Part shown: one piece after another, positions 20,834 to 49,331 of the stretch
Numbering within the stretch: the first letter of the stretch is position 1
Layout of the letters: each line of letters starts with the position of its first letter
IMG/VR virus record: IMGVR_UViG_3300015371_000027
Span: 3,072 to 67,071 of that record
From: a virus
Reading direction: 5' to 3' (one strand)
DNA length: 64,000 nucleotides
Made by a program: the position numbers and the translations under genes
Notes under the pieces: generated by a model
Seen by the model: the letters and a program-made list of their open reading frames with translations, nothing else
The model's database searches: none
Told to the model about the DNA's origin: nothing

Positions 20834-22672
20834 TTATCTATCAGTCGGAATACCTACTTCTCCAGCTTCCCCGATCAATCTCTGGAGAGAAGTATATGAT
20901 ATGTATACAGGAGGATAGCTTTTACCCCATGAATTTCGAAGTTTTACCGCCTGCCTCGAATCACTAGCTCCATTAATACAAATAGCATGACCACCACGAA
21001 TAGAAGACCAATCTGATCTAGTCCCAATCCAGTATTCAGTAATTGCACCGCGTTTCCTCATAACTGGTCTATCAAATTCCGAATACCAGTTACAACCCAA
21101 AACGCAAGGAATTCTCTGATTTATAGCAGCCCTGATATCATCTATTGTCTGAGCCCATCTATATATTTTAACGCCTTCTTTAACATCAGGACCATTACTT
21201 AATCTAGTACGTATATTTTCTATTACATGACCTTTATTTTTCAGCGTATCAAAAGCCGCACGTATGGTAGAACCTTCTTGTGGAGGTGTATTTCTATTAC
21301 CATCTACTAACTGTGCTTGTCTATAAAGCCAGAAAGCATCATAACCTAGATGGATAGCAAGTTTATTTAGAAGACTCATCACCCAGGAGGCAGAGAAACC
21401 TGTACAGTTATGTACGCCTACACCTTCAGCTATGTAAGATTCATCTCCCTCAACCGACATATTATATACGTAGTCATCGAATTTCGTGCTCTCTATTTTA
21501 CGTAATTTTCTCCACGTATAATGTTCATCACTCTCAGCCCGCCAGTGTTTATTAGTATCTAGTTGAAAACCAACTTCCCATATATTTTGTCGAACCTTAG
21601 CATACCTGTTATTAGAGGGCTCGCGTGTACTTATAATAGGTTGGTAGCCTAGATAATTAATAATCTCAAACATACCAATTGCTAGATCATGAGAAATGGT
21701 AACTCCAGAAACTACATTTCGTTTACCATTAGAAGTTTCATACCTACAATGACCATCTCCTAGTAACCAACCTTCTACAAGTCCAGCTAGAAATTCATCA
21801 GGGCCTGAGATAATATCAGGATGAATAAACTTACTTCCTGATCCAGTTGCACATAATTTTTCAAATAATGTTTTCCATATTTTACCAAATATAGTTACAA
21901 CTATACTACCATTACCTCTAATCTGCACGTAAGGCTCAACACCTAGTTTCTCTCTAAGTAGCTGATCTAATCTAGGAACAAGTGTTTTTCTTTCATGACC
22001 ACCAAAATAGAATGATACTTTATTTGATGTAGTAGCTCCTTCAGCTAAAAATAAACCCACTATAACACCAAAATCATTATCTAATATAATCTCTTTAGGT
22101 GCAGGATTTAATCTTACAGTACAAATTCTACGACCAGGAATTTGCCAATTTCTTGTTCCTGTAGTTTGAATTCTATTAAGATTAATATCTGCAAGATAAT
22201 TGTAAGGCTTTATTTTCTTACTTACGTACTCGGTAAGACACTTAGGGAATGCTATAAAATCATCTTCAGTAAGATTTTTAGCTTTAATATATCCTCTTTT
22301 TGTTAGAACAGGATGTTCAGGTGTGAGAGCAAGATGTTTATGACCCCATATAACTAAATTTAGTATATCTCCTTTATACTTTCTAACACTTAAATTAGTT
22401 ACCTGCCCTACTCCACATTCAGCAGTCATAACTCTATCAAGAAGATTTACATCTTCTATATGCTTGATAGAGCCATCAGACATTAGAATGTGAGTTCCAG
22501 CAGGAAAACACGCGCCTTCGTTTCCCTGATTATAGAAAACGATCAATTCATCCATATAAGGTGTAGTTATAGTAGTCTCCACCTTTTTAGGGACTGGTAA
22601 AGCTGCACCTCTAATCGGATACTTCTCTACATGCTCCCAATCCTGCGGTATCTTTCTACCTAAACCAGCCAT
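20834..22672 (-). CDS. Papain-like (C1) cysteine peptidase containing an intein
   Basis: Exteins NQGNEGA|CTGFS (oxyanion Gln, catalytic Cys), GGHAICING (His), LRNSWG (Asn). Confidence 0.85.
   Translation of the reverse strand: MAGLGRKIPQDWEHVEKYPIRGAALPVPKKVETTITTPYMDELIVFYNQGNEGACFPAGTHILMSDGSIKHIEDVNLLDRVMTAECGVGQVTNLSVRKYKGDILNLVIWGHKHLALTPEHPVLTKRGYIKAKNLTEDDFIAFPKCLTEYVSKKIKPYNYLADINLNRIQTTGTRNWQIPGRRICTVRLNPAPKEIILDNDFGVIVGLFLAEGATTSNKVSFYFGGHERKTLVPRLDQLLREKLGVEPYVQIRGNGSIVVTIFGKIWKTLFEKLCATGSGSKFIHPDIISGPDEFLAGLVEGWLLGDGHCRYETSNGKRNVVSGVTISHDLAIGMFEIINYLGYQPIISTREPSNNRYAKVRQNIWEVGFQLDTNKHWRAESDEHYTWRKLRKIESTKFDDYVYNMSVEGDESYIAEGVGVHNCTGFSASWVMSLLNKLAIHLGYDAFWLYRQAQLVDGNRNTPPQEGSTIRAAFDTLKNKGHVIENIRTRLSNGPDVKEGVKIYRWAQTIDDIRAAINQRIPCVLGCNWYSEFDRPVMRKRGAITEYWIGTRSDWSSIRGGHAICINGASDSRQAVKLRNSWGKSYPPVYISYTSLQRLIGEAGEVGIPTDR
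21407..22510 (-). mobile_element. Intein with LAGLIDADG homing endonuclease (368 aa)
   Basis: Starts CFPAGTHILMSDG; block B LTPEHPVLT; LAGLIDADG helices VGLFLAEG and EGWLLGDG; ends VYNMSVEGDESYIAEGVGVHN then C+1. Confidence 0.93.
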
Positions 22673-27291: not shown

Positions 27292-27346
27292 ATATGTAAA
27301 ACATATGTAAAACATATGTAAAACATATGTAAAACATATGTAAAAC
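27292..27346. repeat. Tandem repeat (ATATGTAAAAC) x5
   Basis: Five perfect 11-bp units read directly. Confidence 0.97.
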
Positions 27347-27484
27347 ATAACGTTATATAATAGGAAATCCCCCTGGACCCCCTATCGTGGGCTTAGTGAC
27401 AGTGTAATCTGGGTTACGCTGCCTTATATTTTATATTATCCTAAGTATAAGTATACTTATGAGTTATCTAAGTACTTAGTACTA

Positions 27485-27547
27485 AGTACTAAGTACTTAG
27501 TACTAAGTATAAGTAGTACTTATACTTAGTACTAAGTACTTAGTACT
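27485..27547. repeat. Perfect palindrome, 31-bp arms around G27516
   Basis: AGTACTAAGTACTTAGTACTAAGTATAAGTA-G-TACTTATACTTAGTACTAAGTACTTAGTACT checked base by base. Confidence 0.95.
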
Positions 27548-27558
27548 AAGTATAAGTA

Positions 27559-27584
27559 GTACTACTACTACGTAGTAGTAGTAC
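27559..27584. repeat. Perfect 26-bp palindrome
   Basis: GTACTACTACTACGTAGTAGTAGTAC. Confidence 0.95.
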
Positions 27585-28645
27585 CTTATTCGCGCACGCG
27601 CATGTATATATCATATACGCGCATGTGTATATGATATACGCATACGAGCAACTTCCCTAGCAACTTTTTCCTACATCACCTACCCTAAGCTCTAACACAT
27701 ACAATTATTCGCATAGCCTCCGACACATAGTAGCCACCCTAACGGTTAAACCGCCCGGAAGGATAATCGAACTCTACGGTTAATTATATAAGTATTCTTC
27801 CAGAAATAAGCGCGATTTTCTAAAATCTAAAATTTTTATTTTAGATCATATTTTCTTCCAGAAATAGGGGGGGGGTATTAATAATTAAAATAAGGTTTAT
27901 TTTCTAAATATTAAAATTTTTCTGTAATAAGGCTCCCGACTGTTTTCGAACCTACAATTCCCGGACCACCCCCTTATGGTATACACTTAACCCTTACAAC
28001 CCTGCCTAATGTAAATCGAGATTATATTGTCCCCCTAACAAGCCCTAACAAACGCCCTATTCGATTACTATTATTAGTTTCCCTTTAGTTTTTGCAACCT
28101 GGTCGTACATACCATTCCTCTCCTGGTCGTCCCTCTCTCGTCCCTCTCCCATCGCAGGCAGGGTTCCTCTCACCTTCCCTCGCCCATTGGCATACCCCTA
28201 GAAAGCGTCCAGAACTGCGAGAAAACCCTTCTACGTCCCTCTACGTCCTTCCGCCTCTCCCGTCTCTCTCGTTAAGCCCTTAAGAACCCTCGCCCCTTTC
28301 CCGAACCCCCTTTCCACCCTATTTCCTACCCCTAGAAAACGGGTCAGACATGTCTATGGAAAAGACTAGTAACCCCTTTCCGAACCCCCGCAAAACCCCC
28401 TGAGCAGCGAAACAATAGTAATCGAAACTACCCCATTTCTAAACATGATCTAAAGATTGTTTTCGTGTCTCCCGCCGTAGACAGGAACTATTTTCGTCCC
28501 TCTAAAATCCCTCTATATTTACCCGTCCCCTGGCCTTATCCGTCTCCCTTCCCATATTCCCCCTACCCATTACTATTACCCATACCCCATTTATATTCCC
28601 GCTCACTCTCCCGCAACAAACTCGCGCACCTATTCCTTCCAGAAC

Positions 28646-28674
28646 TTGACCTCTCATGTAGGAGTGGATAGGGT
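28646..28674 (+). promoter_or_regulatory. Putative early promoter
   Basis: TTGACC-N17-TAGGGT; CTTCCAGAA motif just upstream of the -35. Confidence 0.45.
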
Positions 28675-28680
28675 AGGGCA

Positions 28681-29530
28681 GACCCGAGAAAAAACGGGCC
28701 GGCGGAACTCCCTTACCGGGGTTCCCCTCTCCCCTCTCCATCCTTACCGACGCGAGAGGCGAACAGCAGACAGAGGAACTCTCTTAAACCTCTCCTGTAA
28801 TAACGGCGGATAGCTAACCCGATACAAAACACTCCCTTCCGGTTAGATCGGTTCCCGAAAGACGTTACTCTTTCCCGAACCCTTCTAGTGTGAACCGGCT
28901 AGAGACCAAAGGGAGAAAGCGGCGAAAAGCCCACTTGGTTGTAACCCTCTCCTTAAGAGACGGCCAGACGAGAATCGGAAGCTAAGGCAAACGAATAGAG
29001 AGAACGCGAAACCTTCCCTAGCAGGAAGGCGAACCGGCTAGCACTTCGAAGGCGAAAGAAGCCTCTACGGTTTCCCGAACCCTCTCGCTGTCCGATTCTC
29101 CCTCTTGCCTGTTCTTATCGACTAGGGACACCATAGGGTTTCCTTCCAGAGATTCCGGGTAGTAACGATACCCCATTTCGAAGGACGTTCTTTCTAGCTT
29201 CGTAGCTACAAACAGGGTTGATAATCGAATAACGGTATGTCCCTTATAACCCTTCCGATTCTACTCGAATCGCGGATAGTCTTAATAGGCGAGAAGGAAC
29301 CTCATTCCTTCTGAACCGAACCGACTAACCCTTTTCGAATGAACAGCGCGAAGGACGGTCTGATAGTTACCCGGAAACACAAGCGTAGCAGGAGAGGGAA
29401 CCACTAGCCTATCCGTACCAAGAGGTTCAATTCCCGACGGGAGTAGGTTCCTCGGTTTCCTACAGAGGAACTCCTGCGATGAAACCTACCCTTCTTCCCC
29501 GAAGGGCTAGGCTTACCGGGTAAAGTGTAT
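28681..29530 (+). ncRNA. Putative large structured non-coding RNA
   Basis: No credible ORF; several long-range complementary segments and hairpins; family not recognised. Confidence 0.5.
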
Positions 29531-29561
29531 GAATCCCTCAGGTTTCCTGCCTGAGTGGTGT

Positions 29562-29630
29562 TAGGTCTGGCAGGCAAAGGGTTTCCTGCGAGTGTATGCG
29601 ACACTTACCCGTTCGAATCGGGCGGACCTA
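29562..29630 (+). ncRNA. tRNA-like element 1
   Basis: TAGGTCTG/CGGACCTA stem; GCAGG..CCTGC arm; AGTGT..ACACT arm; CCCG-TTCGAAT-CGGG. Confidence 0.7.
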
Positions 29631-29675
29631 TTCCTAGCATAATGCTAGGCTGTTACCTTCCAGAGGTAAGTTTCC

Positions 29676-29858
29676 GTGATTATCCTAATCGAAGAGGAAG
29701 ACGGCCGTTTCTATGTCCTGTTCAGCAAGTCTGACTCTGGTATATGGCAGGAGTATGCCTGCTACCCTTCCCTGAGGGAAGCAAAAGACCGCGCAGGAAC
29801 CTTTGCCCGGCAGAATGGAACGGGATTCTTCCTAGCTGAGAACTACTTCTCAGACTAA
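29676..29858 (+). CDS. Small early protein
   Basis: 60 aa, GAGGT RBS, sits between tRNA-like elements 1 and 2. Confidence 0.6.
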   Translation: MIILIEEEDGRFYVLFSKSDSGIWQEYACYPSLREAKDRAGTFARQNGTGFFLAENYFSD

Positions 29859-29866
29859 CCGCAGCA

Positions 29867-29907
29867 GACAGGAATGGTTTCCAGAGGGTTCGATTCCCTC
29901 TCCTGTC
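29867..29907 (+). ncRNA. tRNA-like element 2 (minihelix)
   Basis: GACAGGA-ATGGTTTCCA-GAGGG-TTCGATT-CCCTC-TCCTGTC: 7-bp acceptor plus 5-bp T-arm. Confidence 0.75.
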
Positions 29908-29967
29908 CTGTCCCCATAACCCTCGGCAATCTAGCCAGGGGTTCCTTCCAGAGATAAGGTTACCATC

Positions 29968-31059
29968 ATGGCAGACACCTTTTACACAGCGTGCTACGCG
30001 TACGCCACCAAGCCAGACGGTTCGCCCCGTTTCCGCAGCATCTCCACAAACACGAGCATGCAGGGAGCAATCCTATCTGCTCAGAACTTCGACCGCCAGA
30101 ATCCGGGTAGCCTGGTGGTAGTAACAGACGGCAGTACACATCCTGTCTGGACGAATGAACCGGCAGAAGAGGACATTGAAGTATCGTTCCCTGCGTCCCT
30201 GACTGCCGTTCCCGAACCCATGCCCGTACCCATGCCCGAGATATCTCGTTTCGTCCCTATGTCCGAACAGGTTTCGGACGATACCCCTACCCAACCTACC
30301 CAAGAGGAGAATGACATGTCCAAGAATCGCAAGCGCAATCTGTTCTCGATCCAGACGCTGAACAACAAAGGCCAGTGGTACGACATTAAGACATATGCTG
30401 CCGCTCCCCAGAAGGACGCGTGCAAGCAGGAAACCATTCGTCTGGCGAAAGAGAACCCTGGCAAGCCTTATCGCGCGGTCGGACACAAGCCTCAGACTGG
30501 CGACTACGTGTTCTGGAATTCCGCGGACAGTACTAACCCTGAGATTAATCCGCCGACTCCTGCGCCTGCGCCTGCCCCTAAGGCGAAGGACGAGAAAACC
30601 GAGAAAGAGCGGGATTCGAAGGACGAGAAAGAGCGGGATTCGAAGGAGAGAGCGTTCTGTCTGCTAGTGGGACAGTTCATGAACACGCCCGATGATGCAA
30701 ACCTCGCGCGGCTTATACAAGCGGCAGTTTCTTTTCAGAAGTCTGCCTCTTCGCCTTCGACTCCGCCCGCTCCCGCTCCCCCCGCTCCTTTCTTCGACCG
30801 CGAGAAAGCGGTCCTCGCGGTTACCAATGCGCTTTCTAACGGTGCGGCGAATACCCGCGTCCTTCGGATGAGTCGGGTACAGGAAGGCGAGAACAAGAAG
30901 ACTCTCGTCCGGTTCGGGACCTTCTCCGGTGCGATTCTCGGAAACTGCAAGTTCGGTTGTTATGCGAACGACTCCGAAATGGATTCCCTCGCGGAGTCGG
31001 TTTCCTTCGCCTTCGTAGAGGAGAGCGAAGGCGAGAGACTCTACACCAAGAAGGTCTAA
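29968..31059 (+). CDS. Multi-domain early protein with Pro-rich linkers
   Basis: 363 aa; 24-bp tandem duplication (EKERDSKD) at 30601-30647; possible internal start at MSKNRKR. Confidence 0.7.
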   Translation: MADTFYTACYAYATKPDGSPRFRSISTNTSMQGAILSAQNFDRQNPGSLVVVTDGSTHPVWTNEPAEEDIEVSFPASLTAVPEPMPVPMPEISRFVPMSEQVSDDTPTQPTQEENDMSKNRKRNLFSIQTLNNKGQWYDIKTYAAAPQKDACKQETIRLAKENPGKPYRAVGHKPQTGDYVFWNSADSTNPEINPPTPAPAPAPKAKDEKTEKERDSKDEKERDSKERAFCLLVGQFMNTPDDANLARLIQAAVSFQKSASSPSTPPAPAPPAPFFDREKAVLAVTNALSNGAANTRVLRMSRVQEGENKKTLVRFGTFSGAILGNCKFGCYANDSEMDSLAESVSFAFVEESEGERLYTKKV

Positions 31060-32394
31060 CCCGTCTCTCTCTCTCGTCCCTTTCTACCCGCCGGATAATC
31101 TCCGGCGGGTATTCTCGTCCCTGTCTCTTCGTCTCTAGGAGATAACCCATGTCCGCTAAGCCCATGTTCCTCGTCTTCGGTTTTACCCCTGCTTCCATGC
31201 GACAAGTTCCTGAGGGAACCCTCGTATACGTTATACGAGCAAACCCTACCCGGAAGAAAGGACGGGGTGGATTCGAAGTGTTCGCTGGACCTTGTACTGC
31301 TGAGCGAGCTATCCCTCTTTCCGAAGAGCACGCTGCTCTTGCCCATGCCCGTCTAACCGAAGCGGGATATACCCGTGTTACCTGCGTTCCCGTTCCCTCT
31401 CTTGCGTCTGTACGCCCCTTCTAGGAGTATCCCTGTGTCTACCTGTACCCGTCCTTCGCCTTCGTTCCTCTTCGTCGTACGTCCGAAGGGTTCCCGACCG
31501 GAAACCTTCCCTGCTGACATGCTGCGGTACGATGCCTGCGAACCTGCCGATGAAGTTTCGCGCTATCTAGTGGAAACGAGGAACGCGAAAGGACGTTCCA
31601 TTCCTACCCTGTCCGGTATTGCCCTTCGTTCCCTTCGTTCCCCTACCCCTGAGCGGTGGGAGTCCTTCGGTTGGTCGGTAGTATCTGTTACCCGCGAGAA
31701 GGTAAAGGAGTAACCCTGCCATGCGTATCTCAGACATGCGAACCGCTAGGATGAAAGGCGAATACATCGCTGTTTCGTACGACCGCAAAGGTGTCTGGCA
31801 GCAGACATGGCTAGTCGGTTGTGATCTACCCGACGCGATAAAGGAAGCTCGACATATCCGGGCGTACGTGAGCAACGGTTCCCGCGTGGAACTACAGGAT
31901 GATAGGAATCGCCCCGTCGTAACCTTCTACTCCGCCCGCTAACCCTCGTCTCTCGTCCCTAGGAACCCGTTAGCTAACCCTAGCGGGTTTCTTCTCTCGT
32001 CTCTCGTTCCCGTTAAGGAGTAAACCCATGTCCGAATCCAAATCCGAACCCTTCTGGAATGAAGTAGCGAACCACCTACCCGCATTCCAGGCGAGAGTAA
32101 TCGCGTTTGCTGCTCGCCTTTCGACAGATCAGAGAGTATCGCGGTATTGCCAGCGGCTGATACTGGCCGGCTATCGCTTAGACGGTAGTAAGAAGCCGGG
32201 CGTCATGGCGTGGCTAATGCGAAATGGGCATGCGGGATTCGTCCCGTCCCCTAACATGCCCTACTATGGCGATTATGTCCGTAATGGTTGGGCAAGTAAT
32301 GAGTACGCCCGACGTGCTATCGCGGGTATGGATACCCATACCGTAAAGGAGTAATACTCGTTAATCCTCTCTCGCCTTTCCCCCGCTATCCCGT

Positions 32395-32474
32395 AGGAAC
32401 GCTAGGAAGGTCCCTAGCATATCTCCGATTCTTTTCCAGAGATATTGTGTCGGGTTCGATTCCCGACCGTTCCT
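32395..32474 (+). ncRNA. tRNA-like element 3
   Basis: AGGAACG/CGTTCCT; CTAGG..CCTAG; ATATCTC..GAGATAT; GTCGGG-TTCGATT-CCCGAC. Confidence 0.78.
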
Positions 32475-33364
32475 GTGTCCCCTACCCTCTCCTAGAAAGG
32501 AGCAAGTTCCCATGTTCCGTTTCCGCACCCGTCGATATCGCGTGTTCTGCGAGAAGGATGGAGAGACTCTCTTGGTGTCTGAAACCATGGGCGACCATGG
32601 CAGGGTTGTCTGTGTCGGATTCTCTCGTTCCTTCCCTCGCGACGGTTCGCTAACGGGTTTCCATTGGTCGGAAAGCTATGCTAGGAAGATCGTTTCCTGC
32701 CTGAGGGACGTTCCTGGTGTATCGAATATCCGACGAGAACTCGTCTCTTCGGAATCCCTCTATGGGTCGTACTGCCTGTAAACCCTAGCGCGTCTCTAGC
32801 GCGTTCTCTCGTCCGTACCCTACGATCCTAGCAGGAGAGGGTTCCTAACCCTCTCCTGCCTTCCCTTCTCCCTTTTAGGAGTATCCCTGTGCGTATCCCT
32901 AACCGTTCAGACATAAAGGTATCCTGTCCCTCATGCGGGCGTTCTTTCTCGCATGGGATTCCCTTCATGGAACATGCGACGGTCGTATACAGGCGAACCT
33001 GTCAGAATCCCGATTGCCGGGAAAAGTGGAACCTCGTAGTTAAGCCGTTAGGTGGTAAGCCTAAGCAGTACTTCGCCCATGAAGTAACCTTCGCCTTCCT
33101 AGGAGTAAAGGAGTAAATCCATGCGCTCGATTCCTTCCCCGGAGAAGTATCTCTCTACCGTCTATCGACGCGCTAAGCGTGCTCGTATGCATAGCCTAGA
33201 GGATAAGCTTAAGCATACCCGCCGAAAGCTTCGTACGACTATCCCCTACGCTAACCCGTACTGGGAGTATTGGTTCGAACGATACGAACACCTGTCTGCT
33301 GCTTTAAGAGTAAATAATACCCGCAACCAAAGTAATACCCGCTAACCCTCGCTTAGGTTAGGGT

Positions 33365-33449
33365 TCCCTTTGCCCGTACGGTACGGGACCTATCTATCCT
33401 TACCTTCCAGAGATAGGATGGATAACGCGGTTCGATTCCGCGCGAGGGA
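33365..33449 (+). ncRNA. tRNA-like element 4
   Basis: TCCCTT/GAGGGA; CCCG-TACGGTA-CGGG; CCTATCT..AGATAGG; CGCGG-TTCGATT-CCGCG. Confidence 0.78.
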
Positions 33450-34914
33450 GTAGTGTATCGGAATAATCCGGTCGCTAGATCGCTTCGGTTAAGAAGCGCT
33501 AGGAGAAACCGTTCCCATGAGTTACCCGCAAGTGTATCTGTTCCCTCGTAGCGATGGAAACTGGTGGTACGAGCGTTTTAATACCCGTAAGGATTCCTTC
33601 GTGGAATCGACGGGTCTGCCCGTAGGTATCTTTACCTTTCAGGCAGTAGAGTTCTTGCTAAGGAATGGCGGAGCGTTTCCCGAAGGAACCTTCTTTGACT
33701 ATCGCAATAGCGAAGTGGAATGGTTAGAAGCAGGCAACCCTAACCATACTCCTAAGGGTTACGGTCCTTTATCTCTGGAAAGAAAAGAGGTTTGGAGTAA
33801 CACGCAAACGAGAGGGAAGGTATCTGTAAGCCAATTCTGCATGGATAGCATGTGGTATCCCCTTCAGGATTGCGCGGGTAGTAGGGTATTACTTTCGCAA
33901 GAAGGCTTTAGTACGCCTGAGTTAGCATGGGCGTTTGTAAAGGAGAACAGGTAAACAAACCATGCCCCGATCTATCGTGCTACGAAACGCGCAGTATACT
34001 GCGTTAGGTATCGCGCTTCACTTCATCAAAGGAGTACGTATCTTTTTCGACGAAAAAGACGTTAAGTATAACGGAGTAATCCTCGCTATGGAAAGGTACG
34101 CTATGGAAACTCCTATCACGCATTACTTCATTCTACTGCGGATAGAACACTGTCCTAAACCTGTTCGCTTTCTCGTCCCTGTCCGCCCTTCGACTAACGT
34201 TATCTCTTCCAGAGATAACCAGGAGTAAGGAGTAACCCATGCCCGAACAAGAACAGGAACCAATTTACGCTATCTATCGCTTCGTATCTAAACAGGAGTT
34301 AGGTACGCCAGGAGTTATGGAAGTAACGAGAGACTTCGTACGCTCCTACGCTTCTCCCGTGGTAGCTATGGGCCATGCCCTAACGATCAAACATAACTCC
34401 GATCCAGACTATGTTTGGATTAGGGTTAAGAACCTGGCGACAGGAGAATGGATAGAGGTTAACTAGCCATGCATATGTACGACATAGGTAATCTTCCCGT
34501 TCCGCCTATCGAAGAGAGAGGACCGTTTCCCGAAGAGGAAGAGATAACCGTCTCTTATTCCGAAGCCGGACGAAGGATTTACTACCGTTCGCCTAGCGGT
34601 AGTACCTACCCTGCGACGGTTCTATTCCGTCTCTCTACGGGTTTGTATCGTCTCTCTGTAAACGGTAGACCCGTTTATGCTTCTCCCGAACAGGTAAGTT
34701 AACCATGCGACGGCTTTACTACATCGAAAACACGGTACGTACGAATACCATACTGTCCTCTTATCCCGAGGAAAGGGTTATCGAGAGGATTAAAGAGCAG
34801 TACCCGGATGTTAAGTTCATCTATCGAGAAACTACTTCAAAGGAGTATGATGCTATGGATGGAGAACAGTATGTATTACTATGGGAAAGAGATAAGTTAG
34901 ACTAACTATTTCAC

Positions 34915-35002
34915 AGGGAAACACGCTTCATGGAGCGGTCCTTATCTTATCTCTGGAAGGAAAGGTAAGGATGTAATAGGGTTCGAATCCCTATGCTTCC
35001 CT
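34915..35002 (+). ncRNA. tRNA-like element 5
   Basis: AGGGAA/TTCCCT; CGCT-TCATGG-AGCG; TCCTTATCTT..AAGGTAAGGA; ATAGGG-TTCGAAT-CCCTAT. Confidence 0.78.
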
Positions 35003-37647
35003 TTCCCTTACTTAACAATCCCGTTAAGAAGGGCGTTTGCATCGAGAGGGTTATTATGTACTCGGTAGACGTTAAGCTTCCCGTTTCCGCTAAGGCAGGC
35101 GCGTGGCAGTTTGTTAAGTACTGCGGTTCTATCCCTGTAGCGGAGAAGGACATTAACAGGGTAAAGTCTCTTTCCAGAGATAACCCAGAGTTCCGCATTC
35201 GTGATACCCGAACGAATAAGATCATTCGTTCTTACTAGGAGAGGAAGAGGAAAAAGAGAATGTCTAAGCTTATTAAGAACCCGACTGTGTGGGAATCTGT
35301 GCCTGTGTGGGAATCTGTATCCGGTATCCCTACAGAACAAACAATTTACTCTGTTCACATAATCAATGATATGATGATTGAGAGTGGAGGTGTAATGTTT
35401 TCTAGCTTAGAGAAAGCGAAGGAGTATGCGGAAAATCTGAAAGTAGTCCCTTATATATCCATGATCTATATCATAGAGAGTAAGCGTGTTTGTGTAGTTA
35501 AGAACGGGCAAGAGGAGAAAGAGAATGCTTAGGTATGCTGTTTACTTCGGAGAAATAGAAGTAGCTAACTTCGTTATGGGTATCCATGCCATGAAGTTTG
35601 CTCGGGACACGTTTAATGCGAGAGAAAAGGGCATGCTCTACTGCTCGATTAAGGTGGTAAACAAAGAGACAGGACACATCCCCGTCTATTACGAAGAGGT
35701 AAAGGAGTAACCCATGCCACTTAAGTTCGTAGAACCGGAAGCACCTAAATACGAGGTATGGTATCTCTTGCAGGATAGATACCAAGGTAAACCTTCTTTT
35801 GTTTCGAAACAAGAAGCCCTTAACTTCTTGGTAAAGCTTAAGAAGAAACCCGATCTCGTAGAGGCTAGACTCTACAGGGTAAGTAATAGGCTGTCCTACC
35901 ATAACGAGGACATAGACCCGAGAAGGAGTCTCTAGCTACCCGTCGAAGTTAATAGTAGAGACGAAACTAAACCCTTTGTCTCTACTTCCCCATACCGGAC
36001 TATTCCGGTAGTTCCCTCGCTTCTAGTAAAGGAAAGGAAAACCCATGCGAAGAGTAAGGAAGGGAAAACCCGCTTTCTACACTGTGACAGTAGAAACTAA
36101 AAAAGTAATAAACGGATTAAACGGATACAGTCGTATCTTTAACTCTGAAGAGAAGGCTAATGCTTTTGCCCAGACAATTCTGGAAAGAGAGAATACTGAA
36201 CTTCTAAAAGAAGTATCCATCGTTAAAACCGTAACCCTGGTTTGCTTCTCTAACGATCCGAAGAAGGAAGATTATGAGTAAAGATAAAGCCCTTCCGATA
36301 GCGATATTCCTGTTCGTTATGTTTGCCATATCTATGGCGATAGGAGATTTAACAATAGCAGCAGTACTGATAATGTCTGCTGTTATCGTGCTTATACTAG
36401 AAAGGGGAAACTAGGAATGCCTAAAGATGGTAATTATGGAATGCAAGCATTAGAACCAGACGATGGTAATACCACTTGCGAGTTCGAATATTCGCAACCA
36501 GAGTTTCCTACCCGATATCAAATCGTAATATACGAAGACGATCTAACGCCCGTCTTTTATGCATGGTCGGAAGACGAGTTAATATGGGTTACTATAACTC
36601 CCGAAGTAATGCCTAGAGAAGCAGTACAAGCCCTTAAGATTGCTGTATGGTTAGAGATGAAAGGAAGAGAGATTAACTCTCTTAAAGATGAACTGTTTCC
36701 TGAAATGCGACTTAATATGAAAGGAAGAAAATAGAATGCCGACGCCAGACGAGATTATGCAGGATAAGGAGTTATCTTCCAGAGATAAGCTTGCGCGTAT
36801 GAGGAAACTCGTATGCGAACTTCCTAAAGGAAGTAAAATGTACCATCTTGCAGTTAAGTACTGCGGGCAACTGTACGACTATGTATTAGATGAAAAGTCG
36901 GAAATAGGTAAAGTCATGATCGAAGTAGTAGCGGCTCGAAAGAAGACGTATGTTAAGCCAGGAGAAATTTTCATATCCGCTAACCCATATAGCGAGGTAT
37001 GTATGCATATGAAGGTAGCTGGAAAGCTACAAGCCAAATACATTACCACGGGTAGATATCCGATGGTACAGCTTCTCAATCTAGAAAACCCTGCTCTCCC
37101 TTGTCCTTTCTCCTTCCCTATTACACTAGGAGAAGGCGGAATATATAGGGAAGACGAAGGGAAATATTACTACGTTCCCGAATATGCGATTAATATTCCC
37201 GAAGCAGTATATGAGTACGATAATGGGTTCTGCTACTACGACGAAGTACAGGGGAATGTAGGACCTTTTTCTTCCAGAGATGAGGCTGAGAAGGATAGAG
37301 CAGCCTACATAGACAAGCTTATAGAAGAGAGGAGAAACGAGAATGTCGGGTAGATATCGCCCCGTTAGCGAGGTAACGAAAACTATTCTTATGATTATTC
37401 CCGATACGGAAAAGGCAATTAAGAATGAGTTTAAGGAAGCTACCCGGCATATTATGTCGAGTGGCCCGTATCGTGCGCCTGAGGATCAGGCTGATCTCTG
37501 GAAAGAATTACTGTATGCATTATCTAGCATCGTAGGGGACCCTGGAGAAAGAGAATGGGCGATTAAAATATCGCTCATTATGCGCGGGAAAATTGACTAC
37601 AGAATATACATGCCATCCCATAAAAGGGATGAGAATAGGAGCTAAGC

Positions 37648-38022
37648 TTGTTATTATTGCTGAGGTATGAGGAAGTAGAAGAGAAGCTAAGAGCGTGGCA
37701 AAAGATTCTACGCTTACAGGATTGGTTTGTGGAAGTAGAAATAGTTCGCAAGCATGAAATGGAATGGCATACTTCTAAAGGAGAGGTATGGACGAGAACT
37801 AATGCTAATAGGGCATTGATTAAACTACTTGACCCTGTGGACGATACTTGTCCTAAAACTGATCCTTATGATATGGAAGAAACTCTCGTGCATGAGTTAC
37901 TACATCTACATATGGATAGGTTCGAACCTCCGAAAGAGGATACGATTAGGAGCAACGAATTAGAGCGAACTATAGATACATTAGCAAACGTGCTAGTAAA
38001 TCTGTATAGGGATAGGAGCTAA
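37648..38022 (+). CDS. Zincin-like metallopeptidase domain protein
   Basis: EETLVHELLHLH (HExxH) with downstream E. Confidence 0.7.
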   Translation: MLLLLRYEEVEEKLRAWQKILRLQDWFVEVEIVRKHEMEWHTSKGEVWTRTNANRALIKLLDPVDDTCPKTDPYDMEETLVHELLHLHMDRFEPPKEDTIRSNELERTIDTLANVLVNLYRDRS

Positions 38023-38031
38023 CGTTTAGGT

Positions 38032-38097
38032 TTCCCTCGTGCTCAGGTAGCTTATTTCCTTTCAGAAATAAAGAGCGTTCGAATCGCTCCGAGGGAA
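38032..38097 (+). ncRNA. tRNA-like element 6
   Basis: TTCCCTCG/CGAGGGAA; GCT-CAGGT-AGC; TTATTTC-CTTTCA-GAAATAA; GAGCG-TTCGAAT-CGCTC. Confidence 0.8.
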
Positions 38098-38149
38098 TGC
38101 TCCCTATTAACAATAGAGTTAATGGGAGTATGTGCCAGGAGAAGGATAA

Positions 38150-38539
38150 ATGTCTAAGGGAGTAAAGCAGGTTAAGCGTATGTCCATTGTCGGCCTTAAG
38201 GTAGAAAGGGTAATTGATGAGGAAGAAGTAACAGTCGCATGTGAGACTAATAAAACGCATTATGCCCTTACGACGGATGGAACTAGTGTTAGTTATCACC
38301 TATCGCTAGATGATGCTGACTCTTTCATTAAATGCGAGTACGAGGAGGTTCCGCCTAGAGTAATTCAAGCTTTTGCAGAAGACCTTCTGGAAATTGCATG
38401 GGATCAAGCGAAGAAGCTTCGGAAAGAAGAAGACGACGAAGATGAAGATAACGAAGACGATGAGGATAGCGAGGACGAAGAGGGCGAAGACGAGGAGGAA
38501 GAAGATGAAGATGAAGATGAAGATGAAGACGATGACTGA
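38150..38539 (+). CDS. Protein with poly-Asp/Glu C-terminal tail
   Basis: Last ~37 aa almost all D/E. Confidence 0.7.
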   Translation: MSKGVKQVKRMSIVGLKVERVIDEEEVTVACETNKTHYALTTDGTSVSYHLSLDDADSFIKCEYEEVPPRVIQAFAEDLLEIAWDQAKKLRKEEDDEDEDNEDDEDSEDEEGEDEEEEDEDEDEDEDDD

Positions 38540-38563: not shown

Positions 38564-40433
38564 ATGGATATATACGAGGGTCGAACAAAACACCACGACA
38601 ACAGTATATATGATATATTCATGGCTCTAGTTCATATAAAACCTGCTTCTTTATGCTGTAAATCCAGTTTAGAGGAGCTAGGTTTATATAAGGGTATACT
38701 AAAACTGGCAAAGTGTGAAGGGTTAACAACTGCTTTATGGTTAGGTACGATTATCGTAGGTAAGAAAGAGAGTGTGAATGAGATAGTAGAAGTATTCACC
38801 AAAGGTATAAGGGGTAACGAAAGGCACAGACGACTTGGTAAAGCGTTAGGTTATTCTGATGAGATGATCGAGCAGTTTATAAGGAAGATAGACGAAGATG
38901 AAGACGAGGACGAAGAATGAAGACGACACAATATGTATGCGATAGCTGTAATAAACCGTTTGAACCAGGCTACAATAAGGAAGGAGGTATAGCTTCCGAT
39001 ACGGAAGATAAGTATATAAAGATAAAGGAAGGAGTGTACCTGTTCATCTCTGGAAGTAATTATGGGAAAGATGCCCATAGCTACAAAGGAATTGTGAGAC
39101 CTACGGATATCTGTATGAAGTGTATTGCCGTCGCTCTAGGGTTAAATCCTAACCCTACGTTTAAGCTTAAAAAGGGAGAGAGTTACGATGTTTAATGTAT
39201 CGAATGCGGCTGATGGTGGAATTCTTATCGAAGCCGAAGAAGAGAACAAGTTTTCTCTTATCGTTAACGTCTCTATCGAAGAGGCTTATGATCTTGCAAA
39301 GGAGCTAATGAAAGCCGCTATTATGGCGGAGATGAAGAAGGCTACGTTTAAGGTTCCGTCTTCTACTCCTACCTCGCCACCTATCAAGGTAGGAACAATA
39401 TCGGGAGGAAAGTTAGAGATAACTAATCCTACTGTTACTGCTCCCGTTAGTAAGCCGAAGGAAGAGAAGAAAGATAAGGAACCTGTCCTGATTATTACGC
39501 CTGATATGATTGACGAAGAGGAAGATGAGGACGAGGACGAGGATACTCCCGCCGATCCTTTTGCAGACGAGGAAGAGAAAGAGGAAGAGGAAGAGGAAGA
39601 GGAAGAGGAAACTCCTCCGCCAGTAGAAGTACCTGCTCCTAAGAAGAAGAACGGGAAGAAAAAGAAGAAGTAATTAAGTAAGTAGAAGGATTCCCTGGCT
39701 ATGGTAGCTATTTCTGGAAGTAAAGGATTTACTAGGGTTCGATTCCCTAGCAGGGATTTACTCTAATAGTAGAGTAAGAAAGAGAGAAGGGTAATGCTTA
39801 CACCTCATCAGCAGTATCTTGCTAGGGTAGAGAAGGAGAGGAAGGAATGGGAAGAGAGAAGGGAAGAGGCTTTACATATGCCTTACGCTCTTATGCAAAT
39901 GTCTCCTCGTAAGTATGCTGTAATATACAATATTGGTAACCATTATTCTGGAAACGATCTTATTCCTGTTCCTCGATGGGGAATATCAGTAGGGAAACTA
40001 GATTATACGGAAGCACATGATATGGTAACTCGTCTTAATCGAGAGTATAGAGAGAAAGTAAATGCTAAAAAGGAAAAAGATTAAAGATTATATATTAGAA
40101 CCAAGAACAGAAGTAGAGGAAGAAAAGGAAGAACTAAGACCAAATCCGCTTAGCCTCTCTGACTCGGAACGTCTGAAGCAAGCTAGACAAGTGGCGGAAG
40201 CAAGCAAGAGTAAGTACGCCATTCTAGCCAGGACTGTGCGGAAGACACAGTACGGAAAATATGTACAAACCTTTACAATCCTCGTTCGGAATCCCGAACC
40301 TCATCTACTTGGTAGCCACGAATTACCCATTTTCGAATACAAGCCACTTTACAGTCTACTGTCCAAGAGAAGCTTAGCTAAGATGCTCTGTAAACTGCAC
40401 GAAGCAGAACTTGACGAGGAAGAGAAAGGATGA
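38564..40433 (+). other. Hypothetical genes 38564-38920, 38917-39195, 39188-39673 (acidic with Lys tail), 39794-40084, 40062-40433
   Basis: Coupled plus-strand ORFs. Confidence 0.65.
39690..39758 (+). ncRNA. tRNA-like element 7
   Basis: TCCCTG/CAGGGA; GCTA-TGG-TAGC; TATTTCTGGAAGTA; CTAGGG-TTCGATT-CCCTAG. Confidence 0.78.
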
Positions 40434-46869: not shown

Positions 46870-48333
46870 GTGTCTGTACGAACTGGCCTCTTTCTTTATT
46901 TATTTCCAGAGATGAAAATCCCAAAGAAGCAGTTACCACCGCTTAGAGAACTAATGCCCCACCAGCAAGAAGCATTTGATAAATACTTCAGGATGTATAA
47001 ACATCCTGCCCTATTTATGAGAATGCGTCTTGGCAAAACACTTCTGGCTATTCGATGGGTTAAGTCGCTTCGCCTAATAAAGAATGTTCTGGTTGCCTGT
47101 CCGGGTCCCGTGATTAGGGAATGGGAGAAGGAGCTAAAGTTAGAGAGAGAAGAATATATTCGCTTCTGGTCTCTTCCAACCGCGAAAAAGATACCAATTC
47201 TGGAAGAAAATTGGGATGATCCTAATCGAAAATGGTTTCTATCTAATTACGAAACTATACGGGTTTCGCCAGGATTAGTCAATCTTAATTGGGATGTAGT
47301 GATAGCTGACGAGGGGAAGATCATAGCTAACACTAAATCCTTTATAGGACAGCTTTTTGTTTTAGGGTTTAGAGAAACCAGGCATAGATGCCTATTAAAT
47401 GGAATGCCATTTTCCGAACATGAGCTAGAGCTATTTAACCAGATGAAGTTTCTCGACGGACATTTTTTGGGCCATGAAAATTTCTGGAAGTATAGACATG
47501 CTTTCTTTCAGAAATACGATAACTGGAATTGGTCGCCAAAGCCAGGAACGAGAGAGAAGCTTAAAGTAGAAATACATAAAAGAGCATTTGTAAAGACCCG
47601 TAGAGACGCAGGGATGAAAGAAAGCTGGACTCATCAGGTTCGGCGTATAGAAATGTCAGATAGCCTGCGTCGGATATATAAGGATATAGAATACGATTTT
47701 GCATTTCAGATAGAAGTAGGTAAAGAACAGCTTTCCTTCGAAACGAAGTATGCTCCTGTTCAGTATATATGGCTACTTCGTTTGTGCGGAGGGTTCAGTC
47801 CTACCGCAGATATTATCCTTTCTCGACAGAAGATAAACGAATTAATAGCACTTCTGGAAGGAGAGCTATGCGATGAAAAAGTAGTCATATGGTTTCACTT
47901 TAAGAAAGAACTGGAAGAGATATCTAACACACTAACAAAGCGTAAGATAGAACATGTGAACGTGTATGGAGATGTTAAGAGTAAAGCCGAGAGAGATAGA
48001 AGGTTGGATGTATGGAATAAAGATAAGAATGTGAAGTTCTTATTAGCTACAGAAAGTATCATCAAATATGGAGTAGACTGTTCTGTAGCTGATACAGAGA
48101 TTTACTATTCCAATGATCCATCATATGCTATCAGAGCACAGAGTAAAGAGAGAATCTACCATCCGAAGAAGAAAACTAATCTCTTATGTATTGACCTGGT
48201 TATGGCTGATACAGTAGATGAAGATATGGTAGACCTTCTTAATGAAAAAGGTATGAGTGAAAAGATGTTCATGATGAGGATGGCAGATAGGTTTGAACAG
48301 AGGAGATATAAAGGTGTCAGTACGAGAGGTTAG
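46870..48333 (+). CDS. SNF2-family helicase/ATPase
   Basis: LMPHQ, MRMRLGKT, LVACP, SNYE, WDVVIADEG, EKVVIW, YGVD, QSKERI motifs. Confidence 0.85.
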   Translation: MSVRTGLFLYLFPEMKIPKKQLPPLRELMPHQQEAFDKYFRMYKHPALFMRMRLGKTLLAIRWVKSLRLIKNVLVACPGPVIREWEKELKLEREEYIRFWSLPTAKKIPILEENWDDPNRKWFLSNYETIRVSPGLVNLNWDVVIADEGKIIANTKSFIGQLFVLGFRETRHRCLLNGMPFSEHELELFNQMKFLDGHFLGHENFWKYRHAFFQKYDNWNWSPKPGTREKLKVEIHKRAFVKTRRDAGMKESWTHQVRRIEMSDSLRRIYKDIEYDFAFQIEVGKEQLSFETKYAPVQYIWLLRLCGGFSPTADIILSRQKINELIALLEGELCDEKVVIWFHFKKELEEISNTLTKRKIEHVNVYGDVKSKAERDRRLDVWNKDKNVKFLLATESIIKYGVDCSVADTEIYYSNDPSYAIRAQSKERIYHPKKKTNLLCIDLVMADTVDEDMVDLLNEKGMSEKMFMMRMADRFEQRRYKGVSTRG

Positions 48334-48769
48334 TAAGGACACAGATTATTGGTCTCATACAGAAGTTGATATTAGAGTTAATGCTGTTAACTGTATGGGA
48401 GTAATGGGAAAAGGTATTGCTCTAGAATTCAAGAAGCGATATCCTGGCATGTATTACGATTACTTAACTAGATGTAGTAAGAGAGAGATAGAGCCCGGCG
48501 GTATTCTTGCCTATAGAAAGGAAGATGTACACATACTTAATGCTGTTACTAAGTATAAATGGCAGGAGCCATCTAAGTATTTATGGATCGCATTAATAGC
48601 TTGCGGGCTTAAACATTATCTATCTATTCATCCAGATAAAAAAGTAGCTCTACCAGCATTAGGATGTGGTAATGGTGGACTTAAGTATGAGGTAGTAAAG
48701 GAGATAATAATAGACGAACTCAACGATAGTTGTGCAGATATTCTACTATTTCCTCCTTGGAGCAAATGA
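48293..48769 (+). CDS. Macrodomain (DarG/Poa1p-like ADP-ribose hydrolase)
   Basis: VNAVNCMGVMGKGIALEFKKRYP and ALPALGCGNGGL signatures. Confidence 0.9.
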   Translation: MNRGDIKVSVREVSKDTDYWSHTEVDIRVNAVNCMGVMGKGIALEFKKRYPGMYYDYLTRCSKREIEPGGILAYRKEDVHILNAVTKYKWQEPSKYLWIALIACGLKHYLSIHPDKKVALPALGCGNGGLKYEVVKEIIIDELNDSCADILLFPPWSK

Positions 48770-48980: not shown

Positions 48981-49331
48981 ATGAAAAAGCTTGCCTTTAC
49001 AGGACATAGAAATAAGTTAGCTAACCCAGACGATCTACGAATAGCTACCTATAAGTATAGAGGTTATGAATGGGTACACGGAGGTGCAAAAGGATTTGAT
49101 ACACAAGTAGATAATCTCGCTAAAGAACTCGGCGTAAAAGTTACAGTTATCCGACCGGACTATGAAAATAACCCGCCTAAAATAGCACCTCTACTTCGTA
49201 ATCACGATATAGTAAAAGGAGCTAAACTATTAATTGCTCTTTACGATGGACGAAAAGGAGGCGGTACGTTATACGCAATTAACTTTGCTAAAAAATCAGG
49301 CGTTCCTGTCCATATTATAATTCCCGAGTAA
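48981..49331 (+). CDS. YspA/DUF2493 SLOG-family protein
   Basis: FTGHR...VHGGAKGFD...APLLRN...YDGRKGGGTLYAI. Confidence 0.82.
   Translation: MKKLAFTGHRNKLANPDDLRIATYKYRGYEWVHGGAKGFDTQVDNLAKELGVKVTVIRPDYENNPPKIAPLLRNHDIVKGAKLLIALYDGRKGGGTLYAINFAKKSGVPVHIIIPE

What the first reader, a model, noticed from the sequence alone, without database searches (positions are those of the whole stretch)
28681..29630. Probable large structured ncRNA leading the early transcript
Seen: about 950 bp with no credible ORF, downstream of TTGACC-N17-TAGGGT and ending in tRNA-like element 1. Long-range complements include GAGAATCGGA 28970 / TCCGATTCTC 29091, AGGGACA 29124 / TGTCCCT 29238, TTACCCGG 29367 / CCGGGTAA 29516, GCAGGAG 29388 / CTCCTGC 29471 and CTCCCTT / AAGGGAG. 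Local hairpins include AGAAGGAA-cctca-TTCCTTCT and GTTCCTC..GAGGAAC, and GCGAA(A) loops recur. Established: phages carry large ncRNAs such as GOLLD and ROOL, often near tRNAs. I cannot assign a family.
Basis: partly seen in the sequence, partly recalled or inferred. Interest (0 to 1): 0.72.

Follow-up and report, generated by a model that had tools for sequence, protein, structure and literature searches.

The report
Untranslated phage leader ending in tRNA-like element
A gene-free stretch at the head of a soil phage's early genes is real and ends in a tRNA-shaped element, but nothing shows that it is a large folded RNA with a function of its own.

Summary
The ORF-free stretch is real. It is part of a 2.3-kb gap (27349-29675) between the divergent late and early operons of an uncultured ~67-kb tailed phage found in rhizosphere metagenomes. 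It ends in a genuine tRNA-like cloverleaf (29562-29630).

The case for a large structured ncRNA does not rise above this genome's background:
- The 881-nt body folds better than its shuffles (z -3.05, 0 of 184), but 4 of 18 equally long control windows, mostly coding, score lower.
- The excess of inverted k-mers is as large or larger in neighbouring coding windows.
- 3 of the 5 quoted long-range pairings are absent from the MFE.
- No Rfam family matches.
- I found no homologue in any collection, so covariation cannot be tested. Six distant relatives lack the region.

Best reading (about 0.45): a long untranslated leader or spacer of the early operon. Its 3' end would be set by the first of 6-7 tRNA-like elements that sit in the operon's intergenic spacers, probably as RNase P/Z sites. 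A new stand-alone large ncRNA remains possible (about 0.15), as does an untranscribed DNA-level region (about 0.3).

The parts
27349..29675 (.). Whole ORF-free gap between the leftward (late/structural) and rightward (early) operons
   Evidence: ORF lists; stop counts in all frames
27300..27354 (.). Four tandem 11-bp repeats (AACATATGTAA) at the left edge of the gap
   Evidence: the repeat finder family D1
27468..27585 (.). AT-rich cluster of nested palindromes (TACTAAGTAC units); candidate operator, origin or packaging region
   Evidence: Inverted repeats I1-I4 and I9; 150-nt fold z -5.2 and -6.6; matches hairpin models on both strands
28100..28680 (+). C-rich, G-poor tract (C 37%, G 14%) with repeated CCTTTCCCGAACCCC and TCTCGTCCCT units
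   Evidence: Composition; repeats D6, D10, D19; motif counts
28646..28674 (+). Promoter-like TTGACC-N17-TAGGGT, 8 of 12 consensus positions; weak and not unique
   Evidence: Coordinates; one of 7 candidates at 8/12 or better; absent from the tool scan
28681..29561 (+). Body of the proposed ncRNA; here read as an untranslated leader or spacer
   Evidence: MFE -298.2 kcal/mol, z -3.05, 0 of 184 shuffles; not an outlier among 18 controls; no Rfam match
29144..29152 (+). One copy of the genome-wide motif TTCCAGAGA inside the body
   Evidence: 40 copies in the window vs 1.6 expected
29562..29630 (+). tRNA-like element 1: 8-bp acceptor-like stem, two internal arms, T-arm with TTCGAAT loop; arm 2 has a 5-nt loop, so no normal anticodon loop
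   Evidence: Folds (z -2.97); ARAGORN -mt call at 29561-29634; 150-nt window z -3.77
29633..29671 (+). Two small hairpins (CCTAGCA-TAA-TGCTAGG and TTACCT-TCCAG-AGGTAA, the second holding a TTCCAGAGG motif) just before the first possible cistron
   Evidence: Sequence read directly; motif hit at 29658
29676..29858 (+). First possible cistron (60 aa, GTG start, GAGG 8 nt upstream); no family match
29867..29912 (+). tRNA-like element 2 (acceptor + T-arm minihelix) between the 60-aa ORF and the 363-aa ORF
   Evidence: Fold z -3.83, 0 of 200; Rfam mascRNA-menRNA 22.6 bits and tRNA-Sec 18.9 bits, both below gathering

Best explanation
The stretch 28681-29561 is an untranslated leader or spacer at the head of the rightward early operon, inside a GC-rich early block (28-34.5 kb) whose intergenic sequence is generally pyrimidine-rich and hairpin-rich.

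Inferred mechanism: host RNA polymerase starts somewhere in the gap (start site not determined) and reads through, since no terminator is predicted there. The first tRNA-like element (29562-29630) is recognised by host RNase P at its 5' side, and perhaps RNase Z at its 3' side. This cuts the leader away from the first cistrons. Further tRNA-like elements in later intergenic spacers would do the same between cistrons.

The leader has ordinary local hairpins, but no demonstrated conserved global fold and no demonstrated function of its own.

SHOWN: non-coding status, the tRNA-like folds, and their strand and intergenic placement.
INFERRED: transcription, cleavage by RNase P/Z, and the absence of an independent function.
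For: - Non-coding in all six frames under any single stop reassignment.
- The sequence is reproduced exactly in an independent metagenome contig (L019, 100% over 28822-31713) and in contig pieces from other runs. It is not an assembly artefact.
- Base composition of 28681-29630 (C 28%, G 24%) matches the sense strand of the adjoining early genes.
- All motif copies and tRNA-like elements nearby are on the + strand.
- No terminator-like site on + between 28100 and 29700.
- tRNA-like element 1 folds as a cloverleaf.
- It belongs to a set. GTTCRAWTC occurs 14 times in the window vs 2.0 expected (0 of 100 shuffles reach it). Seven + strand copies between 29.6 and 39.8 kb are flanked by T-stems of differing sequence, and each lies in an intergenic spacer.
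- Six of the seven give cloverleaf or minihelix MFE folds; five of those have z -2.5 to -4.9.
- RNase P is known to cut non-tRNA substrates, including phage M3 and C4 RNAs and operon mRNAs (passages of PMC11143913).
- tRNA-like t-elements are reported to mark mRNA ends in plant mitochondria (abstract of PMC1920247).
- Nothing singles the body out as specially structured: 4 of 18 control windows have lower z, and neighbouring genes show the same inverted k-mer excess.
Against: - Transcription is not shown. The proposed promoter matches only 8 of 12 positions and is one of seven such candidates.
- The body does fold significantly better than its shuffles on the + strand (z -3.05, 0 of 184), and better than on the - strand (z -1.89). 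A real structured RNA would show this too.
- A leader of about 880 nt is unusually long, and 2.3 kb without genes is costly for a phage. That argues for some function.
- RNase P/Z cleavage at the tRNA-like elements is an inference from shape only. None is recognised as a tRNA by default ARAGORN apart from the odd call at 38032-38098, and none reaches an Rfam threshold.
- Relatives G001 and G005 have no such elements, so the arrangement cannot be checked by conservation.
Confidence: 0.45

Rival explanations
1. A genuine new large structured non-coding RNA. It would be about 0.9 kb, transcribed from near 28680, released at its 3' end by RNase P cleavage at tRNA-like element 1, and would act on its own (for example as a scaffold, a decoy for a host factor, or an RNA-only assembly).
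For: - + strand fold z -3.05 (0 of 184 shuffles) and -3.17 for the full 950 nt, against -1.89 on the - strand.
- ORF-free.
- The 10-bp helix 28970/29091 and the 7-bp helix 28832/28909 have pair probabilities of 0.78 and 0.96.
- A hairpin lies directly upstream of the tRNA-like element and could cap a released 3' end.
- The layout is the one known for MALAT1 and mascRNA (recalled).
- A large gene-free segment is costly for a phage.
Against: - The z-score ranks 5th of 19 when compared with 18 control windows.
- Most 150-nt windows in the body have z between +0.9 and -1.9.
- The inverted k-mer excess is not specific to the region.
- 3 of the 5 quoted long-range pairs are not predicted to form.
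- No Rfam match at E up to 10.
- No homologue anywhere, so there is no covariation support.
- Six distant relatives lack it.
Confidence: 0.15
2. A DNA-level or non-functional region. It could be part of the phage's origin, regulatory or packaging region. It could also be leftover spacer sequence from gain and loss of early gene cassettes in a horizontally acquired GC-rich block. Either way it would have no role as RNA.
For: - The gap begins with tandem repeats and dense AT-rich palindromes typical of operator, origin or packaging regions.
- GC jumps from 0.36 to 0.51-0.57 over 28-34 kb, against about 0.40 elsewhere. No relative examined has such a block, which suggests foreign origin.
- A natural variant contig lacks 31714-32342, deleted between GTAAAGGAGTAA junction repeats. 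Cassettes in this block are therefore gained and lost.
- The body shares short repeat units with the C-rich tract and with early spacers.
- G005 has the same divergent layout with almost no gap, so the sequence is dispensable for this type of phage.
Against: - tblastx of the gap against the rest of the window finds no pseudogene remnant.
- Strand-specific signals (the tRNA-like element, + strand motif copies, a better fold on +) point to an RNA-level reading.
- No origin-type iterons lie inside 28681-29561 itself.
Confidence: 0.3
3. Cryptic coding: small proteins, or a gene read with an unusual genetic code or with frameshifts.
For: Short ORFs of 31-59 aa exist on the + strand.
Against: - Every frame has several stops of at least two kinds.
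- None of the short ORFs has the strong AGGAG-type ribosome site seen before the real early genes (sequence read directly).
- tblastx finds no similarity to anything else in the window.
Confidence: 0.03

Closest known systems
GOLLD and ROOL large ornate RNAs (Rfam families; cryo-EM complexes described in the abstract of bioRxiv 10.1101/2024.12.08.627333, seen in the listing)
   Same: Hundreds of nucleotides long, ORF-free, phage-associated, and next to tRNA or tRNA-like sequence.
   Different: No covariance-model match to these or any other Rfam family, even at E up to 10. No homologues and no covariation. The fold score is not above the genome background.
MALAT1 / MEN-beta with mascRNA (long RNA whose 3' end is made by RNase P cutting at a downstream tRNA-like element; biology recalled, Rfam model RF01684)
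   Same: The layout: a long non-coding stretch directly followed by a tRNA-like element that could set its 3' end. The mascRNA-menRNA model gives weak hits at 29867-29907 (22.6 bits) and 34969-35000 (20.1 bits).
   Different: Those are eukaryotic nuclear RNAs. Both hits here are below the gathering score of 42.5, and neither is on element 1. Cleavage is untested.
t-elements of plant mitochondrial mRNAs and tRNA punctuation of organelle transcripts (abstract of PMC1920247)
   Same: tRNA-like cloverleaves that are not decoding tRNAs sit at cistron boundaries and are proposed RNase P/Z signals. Here 6-7 such elements lie in intergenic spacers of one operon.
   Different: The setting is a phage and its bacterial host. 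No transcript ends have been mapped. Several elements carry enlarged or shortened 'anticodon' loops that contain a phage-wide motif.
Phage RNAs processed by RNase P: phi80 M3 RNA and the P1/P7 C4 antisense RNA (passage of PMC11143913); T4 stable 'species 1 and 2' RNAs (recalled)
   Same: Phage transcripts with tRNA-like features that host RNase P can cut.
   Different: Those are short RNAs with mapped ends. Here the element follows a ~0.9-kb leader and nothing is mapped.

Membership tests
GOLLD / ROOL / any Rfam 15 family | Match to the family covariance model at its gathering score | tested here: not met
   0 matches in the whole window at gathering. In E-value mode up to 10 over 27300-30100, only palindrome-driven miRNA hits and sub-threshold tRNA-like hits appeared.
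Structured ncRNA (generic) | Folding energy lower than dinucleotide shuffles | tested here: met
   z -3.05, 0 of 184 shuffles; z -3.17 with 20 shuffles.
Structured ncRNA (generic) | Folding signal stands out from other sequence of the same genome | tested here: not met
   4 of 18 control windows have z below -3.05 (-5.95, -5.03, -3.88, -3.71). The inverted k-mer excess is equal or larger in coding neighbours.
Structured ncRNA (generic) | Compensatory base changes among homologues | not testable with these tools
   No diverged homologue found. The only other copies are 100% identical.
Canonical tRNA (for element 1, 29562-29630) | Detected by ARAGORN default or the Rfam tRNA clan; 7-nt anticodon loop | tested here: not met
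   Not called by default ARAGORN and no Rfam tRNA-clan hit at E up to 10. Arm 2 has a 5-nt loop.
tRNA-like element (t-element type) | 7-8 bp acceptor-like stem abutting a T-arm with a GTTCRAWTC-type loop, in cloverleaf or minihelix form | tested here: met
   MFE cloverleaf, z -2.97. TTCGAAT loop. ARAGORN -mt call at 29561-29634.
tRNA-like element (t-element type) | Cleavage by RNase P and/or RNase Z at its borders | not testable with these tools
   No RNA-end data. The only RNA-labelled run holds two read-length contigs that show no ends.
Sigma-70-type promoter (28646-28674) | Good match to both hexamers with 16-18 nt spacing, standing out from background | tested here: inconclusive
   8 of 12 positions with a 17-nt spacer. 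Seven candidates score equally or better in the gap. The tool scan finds promoters at chance level. The host is unknown.

The most novel reading that the evidence does not exclude
The ~0.9-kb stretch is a new class of phage large non-coding RNA. It would be made MALAT1-style: RNase P cuts at the tRNA-like element that follows it and releases a stable, hairpin-capped RNA that acts early in infection, for example as a decoy or scaffold. The remaining tRNA-like elements would form a phage version of tRNA punctuation for the early operon.
Probability: 0.13. Interest if true: 0.72.

Novelty: new variant of a known kind. Interest (0 to 1): 0.33.

Why it matters
If the leader-plus-tRNA-like-element reading holds, this phage would use tRNA mimicry to cut up its early polycistronic RNA. 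That strategy is described for organelles and for a few eukaryotic long RNAs. The three literature searches I ran listed no paper describing it for a phage operon.

For the scan itself, the useful lesson is negative. In this genome a fold z-score near -3 and a list of long-range complements do not separate a candidate ncRNA from ordinary genes. Such calls need same-genome controls.

The ncRNA idea stays open only because no relatives exist to test it.

Tried and rejected
RFAM. Gathering mode on the whole window gave 0 matches. E-value mode on 27300-30100 and 30000-38500 gave only sub-threshold hits.

HOMOLOGUE HUNTS THAT FOUND NOTHING USABLE
- blastn of the gap against GenBank phages and plasmids: no match.
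- The search for related loci in viral contigs with the 363-aa, 295-aa and DNA-polymerase proteins: none.
- The 295-aa neighbour has only itself among 5.8 billion proteins.
- The 363-aa neighbour has itself plus one 181-aa protein (41% identity) on a 961-nt contig. That protein has no locus in viral contigs.
- The metagenome scan returned one contig of the same phage at 100% identity.
- A motif-plus-T-loop pattern scan of viral contigs gave 17 single hits, about chance level. None of those loci carried the phage motif.
- Portal relatives are at most 48% identical.
- 37 portal-related and 7 helicase-related loci were fetched. Six records (G001-G006) were searched with the gap's DNA and gave only chance-level matches of 13-20 nt.

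SEQUENCING RUNS
- No RNA holder was listed.
- Three rhizosphere DNA runs hold scattered pieces identical to the window.
- One wastewater run labelled RNA-Seq (flagged by the tool as probably DNA) holds two read-length contigs identical to 28779-28928 and 28994-29143. They look like the two mates of a single duplicated fragment. I draw nothing about expression from them, nor from the parts without cover.

REJECTED
- Alternative genetic codes.
- Pseudogene remnants (tblastx).
- Relaxed ARAGORN settings (-ps70/-ps80 with introns) gave hundreds of calls and were discarded as noise.
- The MAFFT alignment of the seven tRNA-like elements (A2) was not in structural register upstream of the T-loop. I therefore built no covariance model and ran no pair counts on it. 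T-stem variation was read from the individual folds instead.

Paper supplements were not opened.

Full report
CONTEXT
The window is bases 3072-67071 of a 67-kb IMG/VR virus record. It is a tailed phage.
- A tape-measure protein, an SPP1-type portal and an intein-bearing protein lie on the minus strand of 1-27348.
- Helicase, DNA methylase, a UDG-family protein, a PD-(D/E)XK nuclease, DNA polymerase, primase and ThyX lie on the plus strand from about 36 kb on.
- Between the two divergent gene sets lies a gap without credible ORFs, 27349-29675.
- GC content jumps from 0.36 to 0.51-0.57 over 28-34 kb, against about 0.40 elsewhere.

The gap has three parts:
- An AT-rich part with 11-bp tandem repeats and dense palindromes, 27300-27650.
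- A C-rich, G-poor tract, 28100-28680 (C 37%, G 14%).
- The finding's stretch, 28681-29630, whose composition matches the sense strand of the adjoining early genes.

CHECK OF THE OBSERVATION
Coding. The stretch is non-coding. Only 31-79 aa ORFs overlap it, and all six frames carry several stops of at least two kinds.

Strings.

Promoter. TTGACC (28646) and TAGGGT (28669) are 17 nt apart and match 8 of 12 consensus positions. Six other + strand sites in the gap score as well or better. The tool's scan finds promoter-like sites at chance frequency (6 vs 5.9).

Pairings. Two of the five quoted long-range pairings are in the predicted MFE structure with pair probabilities of 0.78 and 0.96. Three are not (0-0.25). 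Both local hairpins form.

Chance. A perfect inverted repeat of 11 nt or more arises in 40 of 300 dinucleotide shuffles. Shorter inverted k-mers are in clear excess: 6-mers 241 vs 152.7 (0 of 300), 7-mers 72 vs 40.5 (1 of 300).

IS IT SPECIALLY STRUCTURED?
The 881-nt body without the tRNA-like element has an MFE of -298.2 kcal/mol against -269.4 +/- 9.4 for 184 shuffles (z -3.05, none as low). The full 950 nt gives z -3.17. The minus strand gives -1.89. Taken alone this would count as support.

I then folded 18 control windows of the same phage at the same length, on the sense strand. Their z-scores, in window order:

| Window start | z |
|---|---|
| 27800 | +0.63 |
| 29968 | -1.75 |
| 30918 | -1.63 |
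| 31149 | -0.08 |
| 32099 | -5.03 |
| 32980 | -2.12 |
| 33861 | -2.56 |
| 34742 | -3.71 |
| 36736 | -3.88 |
| 40476 | +1.10 |
| 46870 | -2.94 |
| 49336 | -0.28 |
| 56366 | -5.95 |
| 58560 | -2.21 |
| 2880 | -0.41 |
| 14836 | -1.82 |
| 17637 | -1.76 |
| 20834 | +0.65 |

- Four of the 18 are lower than the candidate, including fully coding stretches (36736-37616 and the start of the DNA polymerase gene).
- The candidate ranks 5th of 19.
- Inside the body, 150-nt windows have z between +0.9 and -2.3. Only the window holding the tRNA-like element reaches -3.8.
- The inverted k-mer excess (z 5.95, 3.48, 2.31 for 6-, 7- and 8-mers) is matched or exceeded by coding windows of the GC-rich block, for example 6.21/6.08/4.22 at 29968 and 5.14/6.07/6.07 at 30918. 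Windows outside the block vary, from about zero at 2880 and 20834 to 3.8/3.5/4.8 at 56366.
- The thermodynamic and complementarity signals are therefore real, but they belong to the whole early block and some other genes, not to this stretch.

KNOWN FAMILIES AND HOMOLOGUES
No Rfam 15 family matches at gathering score anywhere in the window. At E up to 10 the stretch gives nothing but noise, so GOLLD, ROOL, introns, RNase P RNA and tmRNA are excluded at that sensitivity.

I found no diverged homologue:
- No blastn match in GenBank phages or plasmids.
- No close relatives of the flanking proteins in IMG/VR.
- The 295-aa neighbour is unique among 5.8 billion proteins.
- The 363-aa neighbour has a single partial relative on a 961-nt contig.
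- The one metagenome locus is the same phage at 100% identity, as are the contig pieces in other runs.

Family-level relatives do exist: the portal is at most 48% identical. I fetched 44 loci through portal and helicase alignments. Six records searched with the gap's DNA gave only chance-level matches. Two relatives were examined in full:
- G001 (63.9 kb) has all genes on one strand, a 1.6-kb AT-rich gap of a different nature, no GC-rich block and no tRNA-like elements.
- G005 (63.7 kb, 62% GC) has the same divergent layout with almost no gap.
Covariation therefore cannot be tested, and the stretch is not a conserved feature of the group.

WHAT IS SOLID: THE tRNA-LIKE ELEMENT AND ITS SIBLINGS
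Element 1 (29562-29630) folds into an 8-bp acceptor-like stem, two arms, and a T-arm with a TTCGAAT loop (z -2.97).

The T-loop word GTTCRAWTC occurs 14 times in the window against 2.0 expected. Seven + strand copies between 29.6 and 39.8 kb are flanked by T-stems of different sequence, and each lies in an intergenic spacer of the rightward operon:

| Element | Coordinates | Fold | z |
|---|---|---|---|
| 1 | 29562-29630 | cloverleaf | -2.97 |
| 2 | 29867-29912 | minihelix | -3.83 |
| 3 | 32394-32475 | cloverleaf | -4.85 |
| 4 | 33346-33448 | cloverleaf | -2.49 |
| 5 | about 34973-34996 | T-arm hairpin only, weak | -0.96 |
| 6 | 38032-38097 | cloverleaf; ARAGORN's 'tRNA-???' | -2.97 |
| 7 | 39692-39756 | cloverleaf | -1.25 |

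None has a normal 7-nt anticodon loop, so they are not decoding tRNAs. Their shape is what RNase P and RNase Z recognise. RNase P is known to cut phage M3 and C4 RNAs and operon mRNAs (passage of PMC11143913). tRNA-like t-elements are proposed processing signals at plant mitochondrial mRNA ends (abstract of PMC1920247).

MOST LIKELY MECHANISM AND RIVALS
I read the stretch as a long untranslated leader or spacer of the early operon (confidence 0.45). Its 3' end would be set by cleavage at element 1, and the later elements would punctuate the cistrons.
- Shown: non-coding status, tRNA-like folds, strand and placement.
- Inferred: transcription, cleavage, and lack of an independent function.

Rivals:
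- A true new large ncRNA released MALAT1-style (0.15).
- An untranscribed DNA-level or leftover region of a foreign, cassette-shuffling block (0.30). A natural deletion of 31714-32342 between junction repeats supports cassette turnover.
- Cryptic coding (0.03).

VERDICT
The 'large structured ncRNA' label is not earned with present data and cannot be excluded either. Interest is moderate to low for the stretch itself. The tRNA-like punctuation and the genome-wide hairpin motif listed under Noticed in passing are the more unusual features of this phage.

Noticed in passing
whole window, e.g. 29144, 29658, 29879, 29946, 32434, 33405, 34207; also record G001: The 9-mer TTCCAGAGR occurs 40 times (1.6 expected, 0 of 100 shuffles reach it), inside genes and between them, on both strands; 11 of the 12 copies left of the gap are on the minus strand. 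The consensus tTTyC-TTCCAGAGAT-a is a near-palindrome (ATCTCT-TCC-AGAGAT) that can form a 5-6 bp hairpin with a 3-nt loop. The distant relative G001 (portal 32% identical) has 32 copies with consensus TTCTCT-TCC-AGAGAA (control 0). Five other relatives have 0-2 copies. Function is unknown. A DNA-level signal seems likelier than an RNA one, because about half the copies in G001 are antisense to its genes.
   Followed up: partly
29867-29912, 32394-32475, 33346-33448, ~34973-34996, 38032-38097, 39692-39756: Six further tRNA-like elements, all on the + strand and all in intergenic spacers of the early operon. Several carry the TTCCAGAG motif, or its reverse complement, in the 'anticodon' arm. None has a normal anticodon loop.
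   Followed up: partly
28000-34500: A GC-rich block (0.49-0.57 against about 0.40 for the rest of the phage) covers the right part of the gap and an array of small early genes without family matches. Neither relative examined in full has such a block.
   Followed up: partly
31714-32342 (locus L019): An independent metagenome contig of the same phage is 100% identical except that it lacks 31714-32342 (two small genes). The deletion lies between two copies of GTAAAGGAGTAA. This junction encodes V-K-E-stop of one gene and the ribosome site of the next, and several early ORFs end in VKE.
   Followed up: partly
27300-27650: Four tandem 11-bp repeats overlap the annotated start of the 112-aa ORF. 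Next to them is a dense cluster of nested palindromes built from TACTAAGTAC units (arms up to 40 nt). Together they are a candidate operator, origin or packaging region. G001's gap has different repeats with an ACTAAGG core.
   Followed up: no
28136, 28492, 31072, 31113, 31951, 31995, 32623, 32807, 34171: The pyrimidine motif TCTCGTCCCT (up to 1 mismatch) occurs 19 times against 4.5 expected. The copies are concentrated on the + strand of the C-rich tract and the early intergenic spacers, often flanking small hairpins.
   Followed up: no
20834-22672 (minus strand): The 612-aa protein carries an intein (Intein_splicing and Hint matches over about residues 54-431) inserted in a protein whose C-terminal part matches a phage peptidase family.
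   Followed up: no
56366-57246, 32099-32979, 36736-37616, 34742-35622: Several mostly coding 881-nt windows fold much better than their shuffles (z -5.95, -5.03, -3.88, -3.71). Unusually strong RNA or DNA self-complementarity is therefore widespread in this phage, most of all in the early block.
   Followed up: partly
49336-50694, 48293-48769, 48981-49331: The phage encodes an N6/N4 DNA methylase, a macro-domain protein and a SLOG-family protein next to each other.
   Followed up: no
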